Source: Negaprion brevirostris
Lineage: Eukaryota
Length of the DNA: 64,000 bases
Direction: 5' to 3'
Assembly: GCA_030324005.1 (NCBI GenBank)
Contig: JARDVH010000163.1
Location: forward strand, 84,016,467 to 84,080,466
Positions 15,084 through 64,000 of the stretch are shown one piece after another (position 1 is the stretch's first letter; each line of letters starts with the position of its first letter). The translations under genes were made by a program, and so were the position numbers. The notes beneath the pieces are model-generated. The model was not told the DNA's origin and did not search any database. It was given only the letters and a program-made list of their open reading frames with translations.

Positions 15084-15237
15084 NNNNNNNNNNNNNNNNN
15101 NNNNNNNNNNNNNNNNNNNNNNNNNNNNNNNNNNNNNNNNNNNNNNNNNNNNNNNNNNNNNNNNNNNNNNNNNNNNNNNNNNNTAGGTTATGGGGGAAAA
15201 TCCAGTTAGTGACATTTTGATTAAAGAAAATAAAGTT

Positions 15238-15553
15238 TGGGCAGCATGGCAGCACAGTGGGTTAGCACTGCTGTCTCACAGCGCCAGGAACCCAGGTTCG
15301 ATTCCCGGCTTTGGTCATTGTCTGTGTGGAGATTGCACATTCTCCCTGTGCCTGCGTGGGCTTCCTCCAGATGCTCCGGTTTCCTCCCACTGTCCAAACG
15401 TGTGGGTAAGTGGATTGGACATGCTAAAGTAACCTTTTGTGTCAAGAGAACTAGCTAGAGTAAATGTATGGGGATAGGGCCTGGGTGGAACTGTGATTGG
15501 TACAGACTTGATGGGCCGAATGGCCTCCTTCAACACTGTATGGATTCTATGAT
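15238..15553 (+). mobile_element. HE1/V-SINE, full length
   Basis: Head, V-domain and tail gatgggccgaatggcctccttc...gattctatgat. Confidence 0.9.
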
Positions 15554-44820: not shown

Positions 44821-45202
44821 GGCAATGGCCTAGTGGTACAATCACTAGACTACTAACCTAGAAACTCAGCTAATGTTCTAGTGGATCTGGGTTCAAATCT
44901 CACCACAGTGATTGATGGAATTTGAATTCAATAAAAAATACTTGGAATTAAGAATCTACTGATGACCATAAAATCACTGTTGGTTATTGGAAAAACCCAT
45001 TTGGTTCACAAAGTATTTTTAAGAGAAGGAAATCTGCTGTCCTTACCTGCTCAGGCCGACATGTGATTCCAGAGCCACAGCAAAGTTGTTGACTCTCAAC
45101 TGCCCTCTGAGATGGACGTGCAACCCACTCAGTTCAAGGGCAATTAGGGATGGGTGATAAATGCCGGTCAATCAGTGACGTCCACATCCCATGAATGAAT
45201 TT
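44821..45202 (+). mobile_element. tRNA-headed SINE, full length
   Basis: A-box TGGCCTAGTGG (~44826) and B-box GGTTCAAATC (~44891); body gaaggaaatctgctgtccttacctg; tail caagggcaattagggatggg...cacatcccatgaatgaat. Confidence 0.8.
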
Positions 45203-45219
45203 TAAAAATTGTAAGCGCA

Positions 45220-46496
45220 AGGACATAGGGGCAGCAATAGGCCTTTTGGCCCTTCTATCATTCAGCTAGATCATGGCTTATTGTCCACCTCAATGCCACT
45301 TTCCTTCACTATCCCCATATCCCCCAATGTCATTAGTATTCAGAAATCTCAGTCTTGAACATGCTCAACGATTTAGCATCTACAGCCCTCTAGGATACAG
45401 AAGTCCAAAGAATCGCTACCTTTTCAGTGTAGAAATTCCTCCTCATCTCTGTCCGAAATAGTCTGCCCCTTACTCTGAGATTGTGTCTTCTGATCTTGAA
45501 CCCCCCCCCCCACTTTCCCCCAACCTCCCTTTGCCTTTCTGCATCTATCCTAACAAGCCCTGCAAGAGTTTTGCAAGTTTCAAAGGGATCACCTCAAATT
45601 TTTCTCAGAAATTCTGGAGAATGCTGCTCTAGTCTGCTTAATCTCTCCTCAAAGGACAGTCCCACCATGCCGGGGATTAATCTGGTGAAACTTCACTACA
45701 CTCCCTCAATGGCATGTATATCCTTCCTTCGGTAAGGGGCCAAAACCGTACACAATACTCCAGGTCAGTTCTAATCATAGTTCTATTCAATGGAAACAAG
45801 ATGTCTTTACTCCTACGTGATGCTAATGGGATCCTTGCTTTTCTTGATTATACATTAATGGTATAGATCTAAGTGTACAGGGGACAACTTCAATGTTTAT
45901 GGATGATATGAAACTTGGAAGTATTGTAAACTATAAGGACAGTGTAGAACTTCAAAAAGACAAGTTGGTAGAGTTGGCAGGTAAGTGGCAGATGAAGTTC
46001 AATGCGGAAAATTTTGAGGTTATGCATTTTGTAGGAAGAATGTGGAGCTAAAATGTAAAATAAGGAGTTTAAAGGGTGCCAGAGAACAAGAACTCGGGTG
46101 TATATGTGCATTGATCAATGAAAGTAGCAGGACAGGTAGAGAGAGCAGTTAGAAAGCATGTAGGCTTTATTAATGTAGGCATAGAGTACAAGAGCAAGGA
46201 GGTCATGTTGAGTTTATATTAGACACTAGTTAGATTTCATCTGGAGTACTGTAAACACTTCTGGGTGCCAAACTACAGGAAGGAACCCACTGGAGAGAGC
46301 GCAGAAGAGGTTTACAAGGATCGTTCCAGGAATGAGAAGCTTCAGTTATGAGTATAGGCTGGAGAGGTTGAGACTGTTCTTCGTGGAGAGGAAAAGCCTA
46401 AGAGAGAGAGTAGACAGAATAGATAGGAAGAAACTGTTCCTTCTCATAAAAGGATAAGAACAAGAGGGCACGGATTTAAAGTGATTTGTAAAAGAA
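45220..46496. mobile_element. Adjacent CR1 fragments (45220-45820 minus; 45880-46496 plus)
   Basis: CR1 3' coding and tail motifs on opposite strands. Confidence 0.8.
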
Positions 46497-46618
46497 NNNN
46501 NNNNNNNNNNNNNNNNNNNNNNNNNNNNNNNNNNNNNNNNNNNNNNNNNNNNNNNNNNNNNNNNNNNNNNNNNNNNNNNNNNNNNNNNNNNNNNNNNNNN
46601 NNNNNNNNNNNNNNNNNN

Positions 46619-46910
46619 TGGGTTCATGTCACAGTGTGTAAACCCCATGACTTGGCTGAACTTGCAACATGTCACTTACTGTCCTGTCTGGAGACAATAC
46701 ACATCTCTTTATCCCATGCTTAGTGTTATCTCCACTCATTATCTGCATCTTTAAGACTTGATTAGTTGTAAAGGCTTACGATCTAATCAGTATTCTGTAA
46801 ACTGAGTGTGTCTTTATATGCTGTTTGTGATCAGAACTCCCCACTCACCTGACAAAGGGGCAGAGCCTCAACAGCTGGTGGTGTTTGCTATCAAATAAAC
46901 CTGTTGGACT
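46619..46910 (+). mobile_element. Penelope-like 3' end/pLTR
   Basis: Collinear with the reverse complement of 7160-7450 (tgggttcatgtcac...cactcacctgac...aaataaacctgttggact). Confidence 0.8.
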
Positions 46911-46914
46911 ATTA

Positions 46915-47435
46915 CTGTGTCACCCACAATGCCATTAGGGAGGGAATTCCAGGATTTTGAGCCAGTGACTGAAGCAACAGTGATACATTTCCAAATCAGG
47001 ACGATGAGTGGTTTGGAGGGGAACTTGCAGGTAGTAGTGTTCTCATATCAGCCACTTCCATCTAGAAGGACAAGGGCAATGGGCTTGGAAGGTGCTAAGG
47101 ATTTGGTGAATTGCTGCAGTACATCATGTAGATAGTACACGCTGCTGCTACTAAGCTTCAGTGGTGAAGAGATTGAATATATGTAGATGTGGTCCCAATC
47201 AAGGAGGCTGCTTTGTCCTGGATGGTGTCAAGGTTCAAGTGTTGTTGGAGCTGCACTCATCTAGAAAAGTGGGGAGTATTCCACCACACTCCTGACTTGT
47301 GCCTTGCAGATGGTGAATAGGCTCTGGGAAGTCAGGAGGTAATCACTCAACACAGCATTCCTAACCTCTGACCTGGTCTTGTAGTCAGCATTTGAGATAA
47401 AACCAATTCTGGTCAATGATAACCCCAAGGATGTT
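46915..47435 (-). mobile_element. CR1-group LINE 3' fragment
   Basis: Minus strand encodes SLFTICKAQVRSVVEYSPL. Reverse complement of 11150-11580-like sequence. Confidence 0.8.
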
Positions 47436-47672
47436 AACAGTTTGGATTCATAAGAACTAGGAGCAGGAGTAGGCCATCTAGCCTTTCGTGCTTGCCCCGC
47501 CATTCAATAAGATCATGGCTGATCTGAAGTGGATCAGTTCCACTTTCCCACTTTCTCCCCATAACCCTTNNNNNNNNNNNNNNNNNNNNNNNNNNNNNNN
47601 NNNNNNNNNNNNNNNNNNNNNNNNNNNNNNNNNNNNNNNNNNNNNNNNNNNNNNNNNNNNNNNNNNNNNNNN

Positions 47673-47745
47673 AAGCTTTCGAGGGGACTCCCTCTTCGTC
47701 AGGTGAATGGAGAGTTCTGGCCTCGGACAGAGCATATAAAGCACA
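47673..47745 (-). mobile_element. Penelope pLTR fragment containing a minimal hammerhead ribozyme core
   Basis: Minus strand CTGACGA-A-GAGGG-AGTC-CCCTC-GAAA-GCTT at 47673-47702. Same context as 7190-7260 and 46810-46880. Confidence 0.65.
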
Positions 47746-48079
47746 GACATCCGCATCATGACTTATTTTTATTACCATCTGTTTCTTTCCCTCATCATCC
47801 TGCTTAGGTTCCCATCCCCCTGCTATTCTAATTTAAACCCTCTCCCAAGAAATGAAGCTTAGCTTGCTAACAAAAGAAAACTAAGGGAATTGAACAGATT
47901 GCAGAAATAAGATTGAGGAACAAACAAGTAGCAGGAACAAAAATTTAAGTCCACATCAACAACTTGCAAATAGTTTGTAAAACCAACACTATGAAAAGCA
48001 AACAAGATTAGGTACAGTACAAATTCCCAAAGAAAAAAGTGACCTGAACAAGGACTGTATAGCAGAGCATTTAAAAAGC

Positions 48080-49490
48080 AGTGGCAGCAGAGTAAACATG
48101 GATTTATGAAGGGAAAATCATGCTTGACAAATCTGTTGAAATTCTTTGAAGATGTAAGCAGTAGAGTTGACAAGGAGAATTAAGTCCGTGTGATATATTT
48201 GGATTTTTAGAAGGCGTTTGACAAAGGTCCACATAATAAAGTGGGAGAGGGGAGTGTGCACCAGTTGCTGAAGATAAGCATGATTAAAGTGCGTGGGATT
48301 CAGGAAAATGCCTTGAGATGGATAGAGAACTGGCTGGCAGAGATGGAAAGAGTAGGAATGGAGTTATAGAGCTTATGAGGCAAGGCTGAGGGACTTGAGG
48401 TTATTTTCATTACAAAGGTTACGAGGTGACCTAATTGAGGCATACAAGATGATCAGAGGGTGAGATATGGTGGACAGTGAGAGCCTTTTTCCTTGGATGG
48501 TGATGGCTAACACAAGGGGACATAGCTTTAAAGTAAGGGGATAGTTAAGTTATAGGACGGATGTCAGAGATCGGTTCTTTACTCAGGGTAGTAAGGGTGT
48601 GGAATGCCCTGCCTGCAGCAGTTTGGACTCGCCAACTTTAAGGGCGTTCAAATGATCAGTGGATAGGCATTTGGATAACATTGGAATAGTTTAGGTTAGA
48701 GGGTCATTAGATTGGTTCCACTGGTCAGCTCAACATCAAGGGCCAAAGGGCCTGTACTGTGCTGTAATGTTCTATGGAGTGGGGTGCCACAGGGATTGGG
48801 GCTGGGACCCCAGCTATTCAGAATATATATTAGTGATTTGGATGAGAGAACAAAATTTAACATCTCAAAGTTTACAAATGATACCAANNNNNNNNNNNNN
48901 NNNNNNNNNNNNNNNNNNNNNNNNNNNNNNNNNNNNNNNNNNNNNNNNNNNNNNNNNNNNNNNNNNNNNNNNNNNNNNNNNNNNNNNACCAATATGGGTG
49001 GGAGGGTGAACTGTGACAAAGATGCAGAGATCCTTCAGCATAATCTGGACAAATGGGAGTGAGTGGGCAAATCAATGGCAGATGCAATATAATTTGGATA
49101 AATGTAAGGTTATTCACTTTATAAGCAAAAACAAGGCAGCAGATTACTACCTGAATGGCTGTAAATTTTGTGGGGGGGTGCAGTGGGACATCAGTGCCTT
49201 TGTGCACCAGTCGCTGAAGGGAAACATGCAGTAGGTGGTAAAGGCAGCAAATGATATGTTGGCTTTCAGTGAGAGAGATACCAAGGGTCACAGTCTGAGG
49301 ATTTAGGATGGAAATGAGGACATTTCTTCACCCAGAGTGGTGAGCTGCAGGTTTAGTTACCACAGGAAGTAGTTGATGCCAAAACATTAAATGTATTCAA
49401 GAGGTGACTAGATATAGGGATCATAATGAATGATGGAGCAGGCTGAAAGTACGAATGACCTCCTCCAGCTTCTATCTTCTACATTTTTAT
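48080..49490 (+). mobile_element. CR1 RT fragment with a nested CR1 3' piece (~48362-48775)
   Basis: HGFMKGKSCLTNLLKFFE...YLDF..AFDK before the nested piece, [14 protein letters not shown]...ISDLDE after it. Confidence 0.88.
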
Positions 49491-49965
49491 GTAAGACTGG
49501 TTTCCTCATTTGTAGCTACTACATATTAATGTGCCAAGAACTGTAAGAACAATTTGGCTTTGGAGGAGGCCAAAAAGAAAATTAATCAATTGGACCAAGC
49601 AACTAAAATGTTTACAAAGAGGTCACTTGTGAAAAACTCAACATTTTCATTGTGCCATTAAATAAATCACACATTGGAACTGGATGTTGATTAATACATC
49701 TCAATGGCAAGTTATGACTGCACTAACAGTTACCCACAATCACCAATATAAGTTAGCAATGTCACTGTAATGGAGAATTAAACAAATAGGGTGATTCTTG
49801 TATCAATACGCTTGTGACAAAGGATTCTTCAGCCCTTGACTTTACAGATCAAAGATATCCAACTTACCAGTTCTAAAAAAGTTACCTTTAAGTTGCACCA
49901 AGTTTTAGATGAGGAAAGCTTAGAAGCAGCAGAGGTGTGTGTTTTGCTCAGACGTTTGTTAAATA

Positions 49966-50003
49966 ATTAACAACAAAAAAATCAATGGCACCACATTTTT
50001 ATT
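49966..50003 (-). terminator. Distal polyadenylation signal of EDEM1
   Basis: Minus-strand AATAAA at 49998-50003, followed ~17 nt later by TTTTTTTGTTGTT (U/GU-rich downstream element). A second AATAAA lies at 50165-50170. Confidence 0.6.
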
Positions 50004-52773: not shown

Positions 52774-52863
52774 TTAAAGAAGTCCCACCATCTGGTCAAT
52801 CTGCTGCATGTAAACTCCTTTCAAGGGCAGCGCGTATCTCCGCTCACTGGGGACTCTGCTGCA
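52774..52863 (-). CDS. EDEM1: EDEM1 terminal coding exon (90 bp including TAA)
   Basis: tttccacag|TGC AGC AGA...CTT CTT TAA. Translates [29 protein letters not shown], matching the EDEM1 C-terminus (human ...[22 protein letters not shown]). Confidence 0.95.
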
Positions 52864-53693
52864 CTGTGGAAACATTTTTTGAAGCAATTAGTTTCATCAC
52901 AATAGTATCATTTGCTGCCAAGTTAGAATAGGGGTGATTAATTTTATACAAACAAATNNNNNNNNNNNNNNNNNNNNNNNNNNNNNNNNNNNNNNNNNNN
53001 NNNNNNNNNNNNNNNNNNNNNNNNNNNNNNNNNNNNNNNNNNNNNNNNNNNNNNNNNNNNNNNNNNNNNNNNNNNNNNNNNNNNNNNNNNNNNNNNNNNN
53101 NNNNNNNNNNNNNNNNNNNNNNNNNNNNNNNNNNNNNNNNNNNNNNNNNNNNNNNNNNNNNNNNNNNNNNNNNNNNGAAGAGGGGAGAAAGAACTCAATA
53201 AATACTACTCCATGAACAATTCTGTGCAAATTGTTTTATCAGTTGTGCAGTTTTATCTGAAGCCTTTTGGATTAACTTTTATGTTCAGACAACACAAGCC
53301 TGCACTACAGAAAAGCCCCATCTAATGCAATTTGTTTGTAATTTTTTTATTTGTAACTTTACTCTTCAGACCATCGGAAGTTAATGATACTTTGAAACCG
53401 ATGATGAGATCCAGACCAGTGATCCACAGCAACAACAGAACACAAACTTCCTGGTTGCTAGATTTAGGCCTCTGAGGCAAAACAACAAAGCATCAAGGTA
53501 ACTCTGAACCAGAGAGACAGAAAGAGAGAGAAAAATACAGGATATTTAAACTGCTAGTCATGATCTTGCATTACAATATGTGCACAATCTCAGGCTGGAC
53601 ACACTCAATGTTAGCCAAAAAAAGGGTCCAGTACATAGAAAACAAGAGTTCCATTCTTTAAATCGTGCAAATCCCAGAGCTTAGTTTACTTAT

Positions 53694-54485
53694 TGTGATG
53701 TTAGTGTACTTTCAGGAGATTTTCTTTTTAAATTATGTTCTGCGCAGTTCTGTGTTGCCAAGTTGTCCGTAGAAGCACTTTATTGCTCCTTAAATGGGGT
53801 TTGTTTATGCTTACTTTGGGATCTTTTAGGACCCTGCATTGTGATGAAGGTCATGTGTTTTGGACAGTTTTTTTTCCCTTCCTAGTGAATTTAAGGCTTA
53901 ATTTTCCATTTTGGCTGGCAGCCTATTTAGTTTTATAAGGGACGTCAAGCCGAAAGTAATATTTCTCTCTCGGTTTTGGAAATTCTGCTGGTTAGCTGCA
54001 AGTATGGTTTCTTGCCTTCCTGAAGTGGAGATTCTGCATTGTTGGCTCGACCAGCATATCTCCCAGGCGTTCTGACAAGCTGTTCTGACTCCAAGCTCGT
54101 CTGTGTGCCCCTCAAAGAACTGCAGCATTCATCCAAAGGACTCAGTCCCACTATCACATCAGCTTTAGTCTTTGCTGTGTTAAACATGTGGAAAGTTTTT
54201 TTTGGTCCATGGGAAGTTTGTTTGACTGGAACATTTTAGATATATTTAAGGGTTAGACATTGTCGTGATTGTTTTGTTTTTGTTTGGAATTGATAAAAGT
54301 TATTACTAATTTTCTTTCTATACATTAAATATATTCTTAAATAAACTCAATTTGATTAAAAGTTCTAGGTCAGTTGAATCATCATGAGTGAAACATATTA
54401 TGCTTATCCTAGCCAAATTCAACATGCAAAACTCAGGATCCAAACAGGCTTCAGAGAACACTTGTTTCTGACCCAAATTATAACA
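53694..54485 (+). mobile_element. Solo LTR (~792 bp) in the last EDEM1 intron, antisense to the gene
   Basis: Starts TGTGAT and ends ATAACA (imperfect terminal inverted repeat). Flanked by the 5-bp direct repeat CTTAT (53689-53693) / CTTAC (54486-54490). AATAAA at 54340-54345. Confidence 0.7.
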
Positions 54486-54490
54486 CTTAC

Positions 54491-54676
54491 ATTAATGCTG
54501 GAATTGGCAGGTTTGTGGTCCAGCACTCCAGAGTTATCTACAGTACCTTCTTCTTTAGAAGATACATCTTCCCAAGGTTTTTCTCTGAAAAGTTTATCTA
54601 CTGGCAAAATATGGCCTTCTGTTGTGAAAATATATTTGCTCCCAGATCTGTGCAATGGGTTATCTTCATCAAATAG
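54491..54676 (-). CDS. EDEM1: EDEM1 coding exon (186 bp; ~exon 11)
   Basis: gatcag|CTA TTT GAT GAA GAT...ATT AAT|gtaagt. Translates LFDEDNPLHRSGSKYIFTTEGHILPVDKLFREKPWEDVSSKEEGTVDNSGVLDHKPANSSIN, containing the TTEGH motif. Overlaps ORF 54419..54655. Confidence 0.94.
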
Positions 54677-55149
54677 CTGATCAGGCAGTAAAAAGAAAGA
54701 TTAAAGTTGGTTTCATCCACACAATTAATACTAAAAGCAACTAGAACAGAATCTTACCTGGCTCATACACCACGAATGGTGTAACGATGTAAAATCTTAA
54801 TCTATTCCCATTAAATATTAATACAGCAGGATGTCAAATGTAAGCTTGTGAAAAACACTTACAGCAGATACCAGAAGGAACTTGTTTACACGAGGAGTGA
54901 CAAACATCGAAAATGAATTTTCGAACGGTCGTAGACAGACATGCCTACTAGGGTTTGGGGTAGTGAAGAGACATGAAAGCATGGTTGGATGCTAGGTTGA
55001 AATTGCTTAAAAGTTGAAGCCGTGAATGGATCAAATGACCACTTTTCAATCTTAATTTCTTACAGTCACTGACATTTTATACTTGGACCTTCAGAACTCA
55101 TCGATCCATACTGTTATTTACATAAACGTCTTTGTGAAACTTTTGGTAA

Positions 55150-61524: not shown

Positions 61525-62399
61525 CTGTATGTTAAGAAATATAACACAAATTTATAGCAATGCGCTGGCACTAAATCATGATTAACAATAAACTGTTGAG
61601 CTGAATAAGTCCATTAATTCTAGCACTCCATAACAATTGTTTCCACTCAAATTTGTTGCTATACTCTATACCACATGGCAATTTATGATAGTTTACAGAA
61701 GTTGAGTTAGACCTATTTGCAAATGTGGAAAATTCCCATCTCTACAGCTGCAAATATTCATTGCAACATGACACAGAGATAGGCAGATTAATAAGGCAAA
61801 AATAGTCTACAGAAAGCATCAAGATTAAATCAAGTTTGCAATCCACCAATCATCCAACTCTTCTTGACAACTGTCTACATTTTTCTAATATGCACATTTT
61901 GTGGACTGACAGAATAAGCTAATAAGCCCAAGACACACATTTTCAGGAGCAGGTTGCCTTTAAGCCAAATATGCCCACAAGAAATTCAGACATCCATCAC
62001 ATTTCTTTGCTGTCAGTACAAATCACATGGAAGTTTACATGTAGTACGTACCTACCTACACCACCCCCCCTCCCCGCAACGTTGCATTCTATCAAAAGGA
62101 ACATAGAAAATCTCAGGGAAGGCTTTGCAGTAATTACTGGCTCATTTAATTTCACCACTCCTGCAGTACACTGGTAATTTTACTTCATGAGCAGAAAGTA
62201 AAATACGCTGATTGGTCCCCACTTGACAAATTATCAAAGCTAGAACATGCTTCTCGGAGAAAAGGTTGAAAATGCTAGAACTGCACTCACAACTAGTCTA
62301 CTTGTGGCAAAATGCAGAAACATGGCTATTGTATCAAAAAGGATAAATAGGGTGGTCACAAGGACTTAAAACTAGCAAGTTGGAGGAAGGTAAGAGTAA

Positions 62400-64000
62400 A
62401 ACTATGGGAAATCTCACGGTTAGTGGAAAAAGCAGCATGTTAGCATAAAGGGAGGAGGCTTTAACTACATTGAAAATCAGGGAAAAAAAGGAGAACTCAG
62501 GAGATGTTATTAGTGGAGGTGTTAAGATTCAAAAAGATACAAAAACAAACATAAGGTCACTTTTACTGAATGCTCGTAGCATTCGGAACAAGGTAAATGA
62601 ATTGACAACACGAATCATCGTGAATGAGTAAGATTTGATGGCCAGACATCAACAGGCATGGCTTCAGGATGGTCACGACTGGGAGTTAAATATCCAGGAA
62701 TATCAGACTGTTCCAAGGACAGACTAGAAGGTAAGGGAGGTGATATAGCTCTGTTATTTAAGGATAACATCAGGGTGGTGGTGAGAGATGATATAGATTC
62801 TATGGAAAACAAGGTTGAATCCATTTGGTGGAAATTAGAAAGTGAGAAAAAGTCACTGATAGGCATAGTCTTCAATTTGCACCAAACAATATCATGGTGA
62901 GGTGAGAAATAAAAGAAACAACCGCATGTAAAACTGGTACAGCAATTATCATGGGGGATTTTAATCAACGTGTCGATTGGTCAAACCAGGTCAGTCAAGG
63001 CAGCCTTGAGGAGGAATTCATAGAATGCATTCACAATAGCTTCTTTGAACAGTATGTAATGGAACCTTCAAGGGAGCAAGCTATCCTAGATCTGGTCCTG
63101 TGTAATGAGACAGGAATAATTAATGATCTCGCAGTTAGGGATCCTCTCGGTAGGAGCGATCACAGTACGACTGAATTTAAAATACAGATGCATCGTGAGA
63201 AGGTAAAATCCAATACCAATGTCTTGTGTTTAAACAACAGAGACTACAATGGGTTAAGGAAGGAGTTGGCTACTGTAGACTGGAAGCAAAAACATTATGG
63301 TGGGACAACTGAGGAACAGTGGAGGACATTCAAAGCGCTCAGCAAAAGTATATACCAGTGATAAGGAGGACAGTAGGAAAACACATACCCAGCCACGGAT
63401 ATCTAAGGAAATAAAGGAGGGTATCAAATTGAAAGAAAATGCAAAGTGGCAAAGATTAGTGGGAAACATGAGGATTGAGAAAACTTTAAAGGTCAACAGA
63501 AGGCCACAAAAAAGTTATAAAGAAAAGAAAAAGATGGATGAGAGAAAACTAGCTCAGTATAAAAACAGACAGCAAACATTTCTACAAATATATGAAACGA
63601 AAGAGAGGCTAAAGTAAACATTGGTCCTTTAGAAGATAAGGGGGATGTAACAACTGGAAATGGCTAAAGCATTGAACAGATAATTTGGTGTCAGTCTTCA
63701 CAAAGGAAGACACAAATAACATGCCAAAAATTGATGACAAGGTGGCTATGGGAGATGAGGACCTAGAAACTGTTATCACTAAAGAGTTAGTGCTGGGCAA
63801 GCTAATGGGGCTAAAGGTAGATAAGTCTCCTGGCCCTGATGGAATATATCCCAGGGATGGCGGAGAAGTAGCAAATGCACTATTTACCAAAATTTGCTGG
63901 ACTCTGGTGACTCCCGCAGATTAGAAAACAGCAAGTTTGACGCCACTGTTTCAAAAAGGAGGTAGACAAAAGGTGGATAACTATAGACTGGTTTGCTTAA
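62400..64000 (+). mobile_element. CR1/HER1-type LINE, ORF2 endonuclease region (decayed), runs off the window; intronic and antisense to EDEM1
   Basis: APE motifs LNARSIRNK, IMGDFN, LDLVLCN and SDH; later LKVDKSPGPDGIYPR and DNYRLV. Contains stops and frameshifts. Confidence 0.9.

What the first reader, a model, noticed from the sequence alone, without database searches (positions are those of the whole stretch)
53683..54495. Solo LTR inserted into the EDEM1 5' splice site: TSD duplicated the donor and the distal copy is inactivated
Seen: the penultimate coding exon ends at 54491 with minus-strand donor GTAAG (54490-54486). The LTR end TGTTATAA follows immediately, so the LTR supplies the +6 T of a consensus GTAAGT. 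At the far LTR end the duplicated target reads ATAAG (53693-53689) followed by TAAACT, i.e. ATAAGTAAACT, one substitution from GTAAGTAAACT. Inference: the element landed at intron +5/+6. The gene survived because the LTR's terminal T restored the consensus. The second donor copy lost its G; with it, the copy could have spliced the ~0.8 kb LTR into the mRNA. The LTR is antisense to the gene, so its AATAAA would not truncate EDEM1, though it might drive antisense transcription into the exon.
Basis: partly seen in the sequence, partly recalled or inferred. Interest (0 to 1): 0.7.

Follow-up and report, generated by a model that had tools for sequence, protein, structure and literature searches.

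The report
Old gypsy LTR beside EDEM1 donor
An old retrotransposon end sits six bases into the last intron of a shark EDEM1 gene without breaking splicing; it is likely a harmless passenger, because relatives carry an intact second splice signal at its far end and show no sign of using it.

Summary
Window 53694-54485 is a 792-bp TG..CA solo LTR with the same ends as its paralogs. It belongs to a Gmr1-like Ty3/gypsy family (SCAN gag, integrase before RT/RNase H), lies antisense to EDEM1, and starts at +6 of the last donor. A relative's contig is spliced at that donor. All 6 relative runs laid carry the LTR; no empty allele was found.

First, the family makes 4-bp target duplications: 22 of 71 paralogs exact, against 1 of 71 for 5 bp. 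The donor G was probably never copied; TAAG (+2..+5) plus one extra base fits slightly better. Second, two relative runs read C at 53693, so their far copy is an intact GTAAGT, and the RNA-like one shows no branch there. Inactivation was not needed. The +6 T follows from any TG..CA end. Verdict: a real, ordinary, likely neutral insertion of the kind known to survive near donors.

The parts
53694..54485 (+). Solo LTR (792 bp, TG..CA) of a Gmr1-like Ty3/gypsy family; LTR sense is the window + strand, U5 end faces the exon
   Evidence: orientation from purine tracts and RNase H upstream of the TG end, and from PBS and SCAN downstream of the CA end, in paralogs
54486..54490 (-). Used splice donor +1..+5 (GTAAG) of the last EDEM1 intron; 54486-54489 is the exon-side copy of the likely 4-bp TSD
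   Evidence: spliced contig in X24
54485..54485 (-). +6 T of the donor, supplied by the LTR terminus
   Evidence: U1 duplex -7.3 kcal/mol with T against -4.3 to -4.8 without
53689..53693 (-). Far-end repeat: TAAG at 53692-53689 plus one variable base at 53693 (minus-strand A here and in organism B; G in X7 and X10)
54491..54676 (-). Penultimate EDEM1 coding exon, 186 nt
52774..52863 (-). Coding part of the last EDEM1 exon (acceptor at 52863)
53779..53784 (-). Gene-sense AATAAA inside the LTR, a family feature; use not shown
   Evidence: 40 of 58 paralogs
54340..54345 (+). LTR-sense AATAAA, the likely poly(A) signal of the LTR
   Evidence: 39 of 58 paralogs
54419..54421 (-). In-frame stop met after 23 codons if the proximal donor is skipped

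Best explanation
This is an old solo LTR of a Gmr1-like Ty3/gypsy retrotransposon, shared with relatives and lying antisense at +6 of a working EDEM1 splice donor, and it is likely a neutral survivor. Inferred steps: a full-length element (about 5 kb inside plus two LTRs) integrated with the family's 4-bp staggered cut over intron +2..+5 (TAAG). That left the donor whole from the first moment, since any TG..CA end puts T at +6. Recombination between the LTRs left one LTR. The far junction carries one extra base, T in the oldest state and C in one clade. The far GTAAGT-like site is likely ignored whatever that base is: using it would need a 983-nt exon instead of 186 nt, with a stop after 23 codons, and the proximal donor competes first.
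For: Shown: the repeat and its ends. The family TSD is 4 bp: exact in 22 of 71 and 3/4 in 20 of 71, against shuffled rates of 0.7% and 6.4%; 5 bp exact in 1 of 71 and 4/5 in 0 of 71. Domain order SCAN, integrase, RT, RNase H, LTR in L031 and integrase, RT, RNase H, LTR in L162. LTR present at the same site in 6 of 6 relative runs laid. Splice 54491 to 52863 in X24 at depth 30. Intact far GTAAGT in X10 and X7; X10's 1296-bp intron contig (depth 7) is unbroken over 53694 while the exon start 52863 is a branch point (depth 32), and no 53694-52863 joint is listed. The intact far site pairs with U1 about as well as the used one (-7.2 against -7.3 kcal/mol), so weakness does not explain its silence. 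Inferred tree: at 53768 and 53777 organism B (and H at 53768) shares the paralog base while the window and C, E and X7 share another, so T at 53693 looks older than C. Literature: LTRs surviving near exons are mostly antisense and more often near donors than acceptors (PMC3088655, section 8 read).
Against: The focal site is not a clean 4-bp TSD in register (1 of 4 matches), and a 4-mer shifted by one base occurs in only 1 of 71 paralogs (L006, equally readable as 5 bp). The exact CTTAC/CTTAC in X10 and X7 is what a true 5-bp TSD would look like. The tree rests on two polarised sites, one of them beside a G (CpG risk). Organism H reads T or has a one-base gap at 53693; this is unresolved. Contigs drop rare isoforms, the RNA label of X10 and X24 is a guess, and no RNA of the window's own species was laid. 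No empty allele was seen. The exon-length argument is general knowledge, not tested here.
Confidence: 0.7

Rival explanations
1. True 5-bp duplication of GTAAG (a rare cut for this family), with later neutral change of the far G; the C in X7 and X10 is a retained or reverted base.
For: Exact 5/5 repeat in X10 and X7; 4/5 in the window, chance rate 1.9%; one paralog, L006, can be read as 5 bp.
Against: At most 1 of 71 paralogs shows 5 bp. On the inferred tree it needs two substitutions at 53693 rather than one.
Confidence: 0.15
2. One reading: the duplicated donor was harmful and selection removed its G.
For: The window and organism B lack the G. An intact far site pairs well with U1. Human LTRs near exons carry fewer and weaker predicted splice sites (PMC3088655, passage read).
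Against: The G is present in X10 and X7 with no branch or joint at that site. The window's lineage has itself gained a CAG|GTAAGA at 54757 that four relatives lack and an AAA|GTAAGC inside the LTR that 0 of 58 paralogs have, so such sites come and go here.
Confidence: 0.07
3. The far-end likeness is chance: the real TSD was erased by a small junction deletion, and the original donor continuation is unknown.
For: 17 of 71 paralogs keep at most 1 of 4 TSD matches (some are ends of longer elements), and the in-register focal match is 1 of 4.
Against: A shifted exact 4-mer has about a 0.7% chance and 4/5 a 1.9% chance.
Confidence: 0.12
4. The LTR is co-opted: read-through of the donor plus the gene-sense AATAAA gives an EDEM1 isoform with a 23-residue LTR-derived tail, or the LTR drives antisense RNA into the exon.
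For: Open 23-codon read-through; gene-sense AATAAA at 53784; intron contigs in both RNA-like runs at roughly an eighth to a quarter of exon depth.
Against: The AATAAA is a family feature, not locus-specific (40 of 58 paralogs). X10's intron contig is long enough to run unbroken past it. None of the 24 proteins fetched has the LTR tail (14 further members of a 37-member cluster were read). The TATA-like word at 53934 is in 0 of 58 paralogs. Intron cover can be pre-mRNA or DNA.
Confidence: 0.05

Closest known systems
Gmr1-like Ty3/gypsy LTR retrotransposons
   Same: Integrase upstream of RT (described in PMC8220671, passages read); SCAN domain (over half of frog Gmr elements, PMC4131045, passages read); TG..CA LTRs; no room for env.
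   Different: The focal copy is a solo LTR and is assigned through paralogs at 75-82% identity; no RT tree was built. A 4-bp TSD and a tRNA-Pro-like PBS were measured here; I found no paper stating them for Gmr1.
Fixed intronic LTRs inside the under-representation zone near exons (PMC3088655)
   Same: Antisense, on the donor side, within 20 bp of an exon, donor core of about 6 bp left intact. The paper reports six full-length mouse LTR elements within 20 bp of exons, one near an acceptor.
   Different: Here the element is flush with the donor core and forms its sixth base, in a shark; the parts of the paper I read do not discuss TSD-duplicated donors.
Transposon-created introns or splice sites by TSD duplication (recalled, not looked up)
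   Same: A target duplication copies part of a splice signal.
   Different: No new intron or exon results: the junction is the same in chimaera, ray and shark proteins, and the copied site is not seen in use.

Membership tests
Solo LTR | TG..CA termini shared with dispersed copies | tested here: met
Solo LTR | Same repeat flanks gag-pol internal sequence elsewhere, with PBS and PPT | tested here: met
   tRNA-Pro-like PBS scores 18-20 in three copies against at most 12 in 70 other flanks
Solo LTR | TSD of the family's length on both sides | tested here: inconclusive
   family 4 bp; focal 1/4 in register, 4/4 shifted by one base, 4/5 or 5/5 as 5 bp
Gmr1-like Ty3/gypsy | Integrase upstream of RT and RNase H | tested here: met
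   L162 and L031; RVT_1 E 6.9e-07 and 1.8e-04 with stops read as X
Gmr1-like Ty3/gypsy | SCAN domain in gag | tested here: met
   L159 E 2.8e-14; L031 E 2.4e-05, below the curated cut-off
Gmr1-like Ty3/gypsy | RT phylogeny within the Gmr1 clade | not tested
   no reference Gmr1 sequence was held
Endogenous retrovirus | RT-RNase H-integrase order and env before the 3' LTR | tested here: not met
   integrase precedes RT; RNase H ends a few hundred bases from the 3' LTR
   1 of 71 exact, 0 of 71 with one mismatch
EDEM1 (GH47) | GH47 domain and closest named proteins | tested here: met
Exonised or co-opted LTR | Spliced or polyadenylated transcript using LTR sequence | tested here: inconclusive
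   none seen in two RNA-like contig sets or 24 proteins; rare forms are invisible to these data

The most novel reading that the evidence does not exclude
The LTR gives this shark group a regulated second 3' end for EDEM1: donor skipping plus the LTR's gene-sense AATAAA yields an LTR-tailed isoform, and the clade that gained an intact far GTAAGT adds a decay-targeted 983-nt exon, so one base at an old integration scar tunes an ER quality-control gene differently between species.
Probability: 0.05. Interest if true: 0.55.

Novelty: new member of a known kind. Interest (0 to 1): 0.2.

Why it matters
As found, it is a tidy example of survivorship: +6 is about the closest an LTR can land to a donor without harm, because both LTR ends read TG. 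A rough estimate (about 2e5 introns from general knowledge, 2.7e9 bases, thousands of copies in this family alone) makes a few such cases per genome likely across all LTR families. Its modest value is as a natural pair of alleles: relatives with and without a second GTAAGT 797 nt downstream allow a clean test of donor competition. The insertion and the base at 53693 are also usable phylogenetic markers.

Tried and rejected
Empty allele: none in the 6 distinct relative runs laid, of 24 listed. The genome holds one copy of the exon, so no second haplotype. A 20-nt exon-donor scan of metagenome contigs gave 2 hits, both chance 20-nt matches. No listed run is on record as RNA; X10 and X24 are guesses, supported by breaks at the exon edge. 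Antisense transcription cannot be judged from contigs. One search's difference table was cut (696 rows hidden), so 53693 is unknown for organisms C and E. L032 was fetched on the wrong side of its LTR and not used. A TATA box at 53934 was rejected as not shared by paralogs. Absolute dating was dropped: the shark rate seen (PMC10587355, abstract only) is per generation. An ERV reading was rejected on domain order. Alternative tails of three Heterodontus isoforms do not match this LTR. No splice-site scorer was on hand; U1 pairing was used instead. Paper searches listed no report of this locus or of a TSD-duplicated donor, judged from listings; many journals are not covered. Two look-ups of earlier scan notes returned nothing.

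Full report
Observation. On the minus strand a 186-nt exon ends at 54491, GTAAG follows, then a 792-bp element with TG..CA ends (54485-53694), then ATAAGTAAACT. The gene is EDEM1: GH47 hits, nearest named proteins, and a tblastn exon map over the window and its neighbouring stretches. Most of the shark, ray and chimaera proteins compared join ...SSIN to CSRV or CNRV, so the intron is older than the insertion.

The element is a real repeat. A genome search scored 41 matches of 4540 candidates, best 79%. A terminal 21-mer occurs 308 times against 0 for the control. Paralog similarity stops at the same two ends. Internal sequence beside paralog LTRs gives SCAN, integrase, RT and RNase H in that order, with a tRNA-Pro-like PBS after the CA end and purine tracts before the TG end. 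Integrase before RT and a SCAN gag are described for Gmr1 elements (PMC8220671 and PMC4131045, passages read). It is not a retrovirus. LTR sense is window +, antisense to the gene, with U5 facing the exon.

TSD length. Of 158 loci held, 5 long ones were skipped and duplicates merged. That left 72 copies with both ends (the focal one included), 50 with only the 3' end, and 14 loci without the 3' motif. The set is biased to top BLAST hits and to the first 100 of 308 motif matches. Among the 71 paralogs, 4-bp TSDs are exact in 22 and 3/4 in 20 (shuffled 0.7% and 6.4%); 5-bp TSDs are exact in 1 and 4/5 in 0 (shuffled 0.14% and 1.9%). The family cuts 4 bp. The focal flanks, CTTA-T before the LTR and CTTA-C after it, fit either a 4-bp TSD over intron +2..+5 plus one extra base, or a rare 5-bp TSD.

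Relatives. Of 24 runs listed, 6 distinct ones from six studies were laid. All carry the LTR at this site. Four DNA-type runs bridge the exon-side junction. X7, X8, X12, X10 and X24 bridge the far junction with single contigs, and X2 with two overlapping ones. Flanks differ from the window by about 1.5-5%, against 18% or more for the closest paralog, so the insertion is several times older than this radiation.

The key base. At 53693, X10 reads C at full depth (6.97 of 6.97). X7 reads C in 2 contigs (35.9 of 90.2), one of which must be the long orthologous contig, given its distance from the contig end. X2 reads T. X24 reads T or has its one-base gap there. In X10 and X7 the repeat is therefore an exact CTTAC/CTTAC and the far site an intact GTAAGTAAACT. 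At 53768 and 53777 the paralogs (50 and 46 of 58) and X2 share one base while the window, X7, X8 and X12 share another (inferred from residual depths). X24 sides with X2, and X10 with the window, at 53768. That places B and H outside, makes T the older state, and makes the G of the far site a likely gain. The tree is thin evidence.

Splicing. X24 has a depth-30 contig that leaves the last exon at 52863 and continues with the sequence of 54491-54520, so the proximal donor is used. X10's exon contig (depth 32) begins exactly at 52863. Its intron contig (depth 7, 1296 bp) overlaps it by 30 nt and runs unbroken across 53694, and no joint from the far site is listed. Contigs drop rare forms, so only abundant use is excluded. 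With the U1 end taken from this genome, pairing is -7.3 kcal/mol for the used donor, -4.3 to -4.8 if +6 were not T, -4.1 for the window's far site and -7.2 for the intact far site. So +6 T likely matters for this donor, which lacks a G at -1, but any TG..CA end supplies it. The far site's silence is better explained by exon size and competition (general knowledge): it would make a 983-nt exon with a stop after 23 codons.

Other signals. The LTR's own AATAAA (54340) is in 39 of 58 paralogs. None of 24 proteins has the LTR read-through tail. Antisense transcription was not testable.

Comparison and verdict. Fixed LTRs near exons are known to be antisense-biased and commoner near donors, whose core is about 6 bp (PMC3088655; passages and section 8 read). 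This locus is the limiting case of that pattern. No listing in my paper searches reported it; supplements were not opened. It is a real but ordinary, likely neutral insertion. My weights for the junction detail alone are about 0.5-0.55 for 4 bp + 1, 0.2-0.25 for 5 bp and 0.15-0.2 for chance; these are judgements, not computed values. Interest 0.2.

Noticed in passing
window 54760-54751, minus strand (+1 at 54757): A near-perfect donor CAG|GTAAGAT lies 81 nt upstream of the penultimate exon's start; four relative runs have T for C at 54757, so the GT is likely new in the window's lineage. Use unknown.
   Followed up: partly
window 53817-53809, minus strand (+1 at 53814): Gene-sense AAA|GTAAGC inside the LTR, found in 0 of 58 paralogs; weak U1 pairing.
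   Followed up: partly
window 53405: A 13-bp insertion shared by runs X7 and X10, with seven shared substitutions including 53693, marks them as one clade.
   Followed up: partly
proteins P0001, P0012, P0020: Three Heterodontus EDEM1 isoforms diverge exactly at this donor into three unrelated tails, and none of the three has the usual last exon; the X1 tail looks LINE RT-like (recalled, not tested). No match to the window. Possibly an assembly or annotation gap.
   Followed up: partly
window 52864-53741: Both RNA-like runs have contigs in the last intron at about an eighth to a quarter of exon depth; pre-mRNA, DNA or retention cannot be told apart.
   Followed up: no
window 15229-15316: ARAGORN calls a tRNA-Leu(TAG); could be a tRNA-derived repeat.
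   Followed up: no
L160:1-2016 and L161:25-2796: Rearranged family members: an inversion inside one copy and a partly deleted second LTR in another.
   Followed up: no
window 45000-50000 and 62300-64000: Broken reading frames that look like LINE endonuclease/RT pieces in EDEM1 introns and downstream (label recalled, not tested).
   Followed up: no
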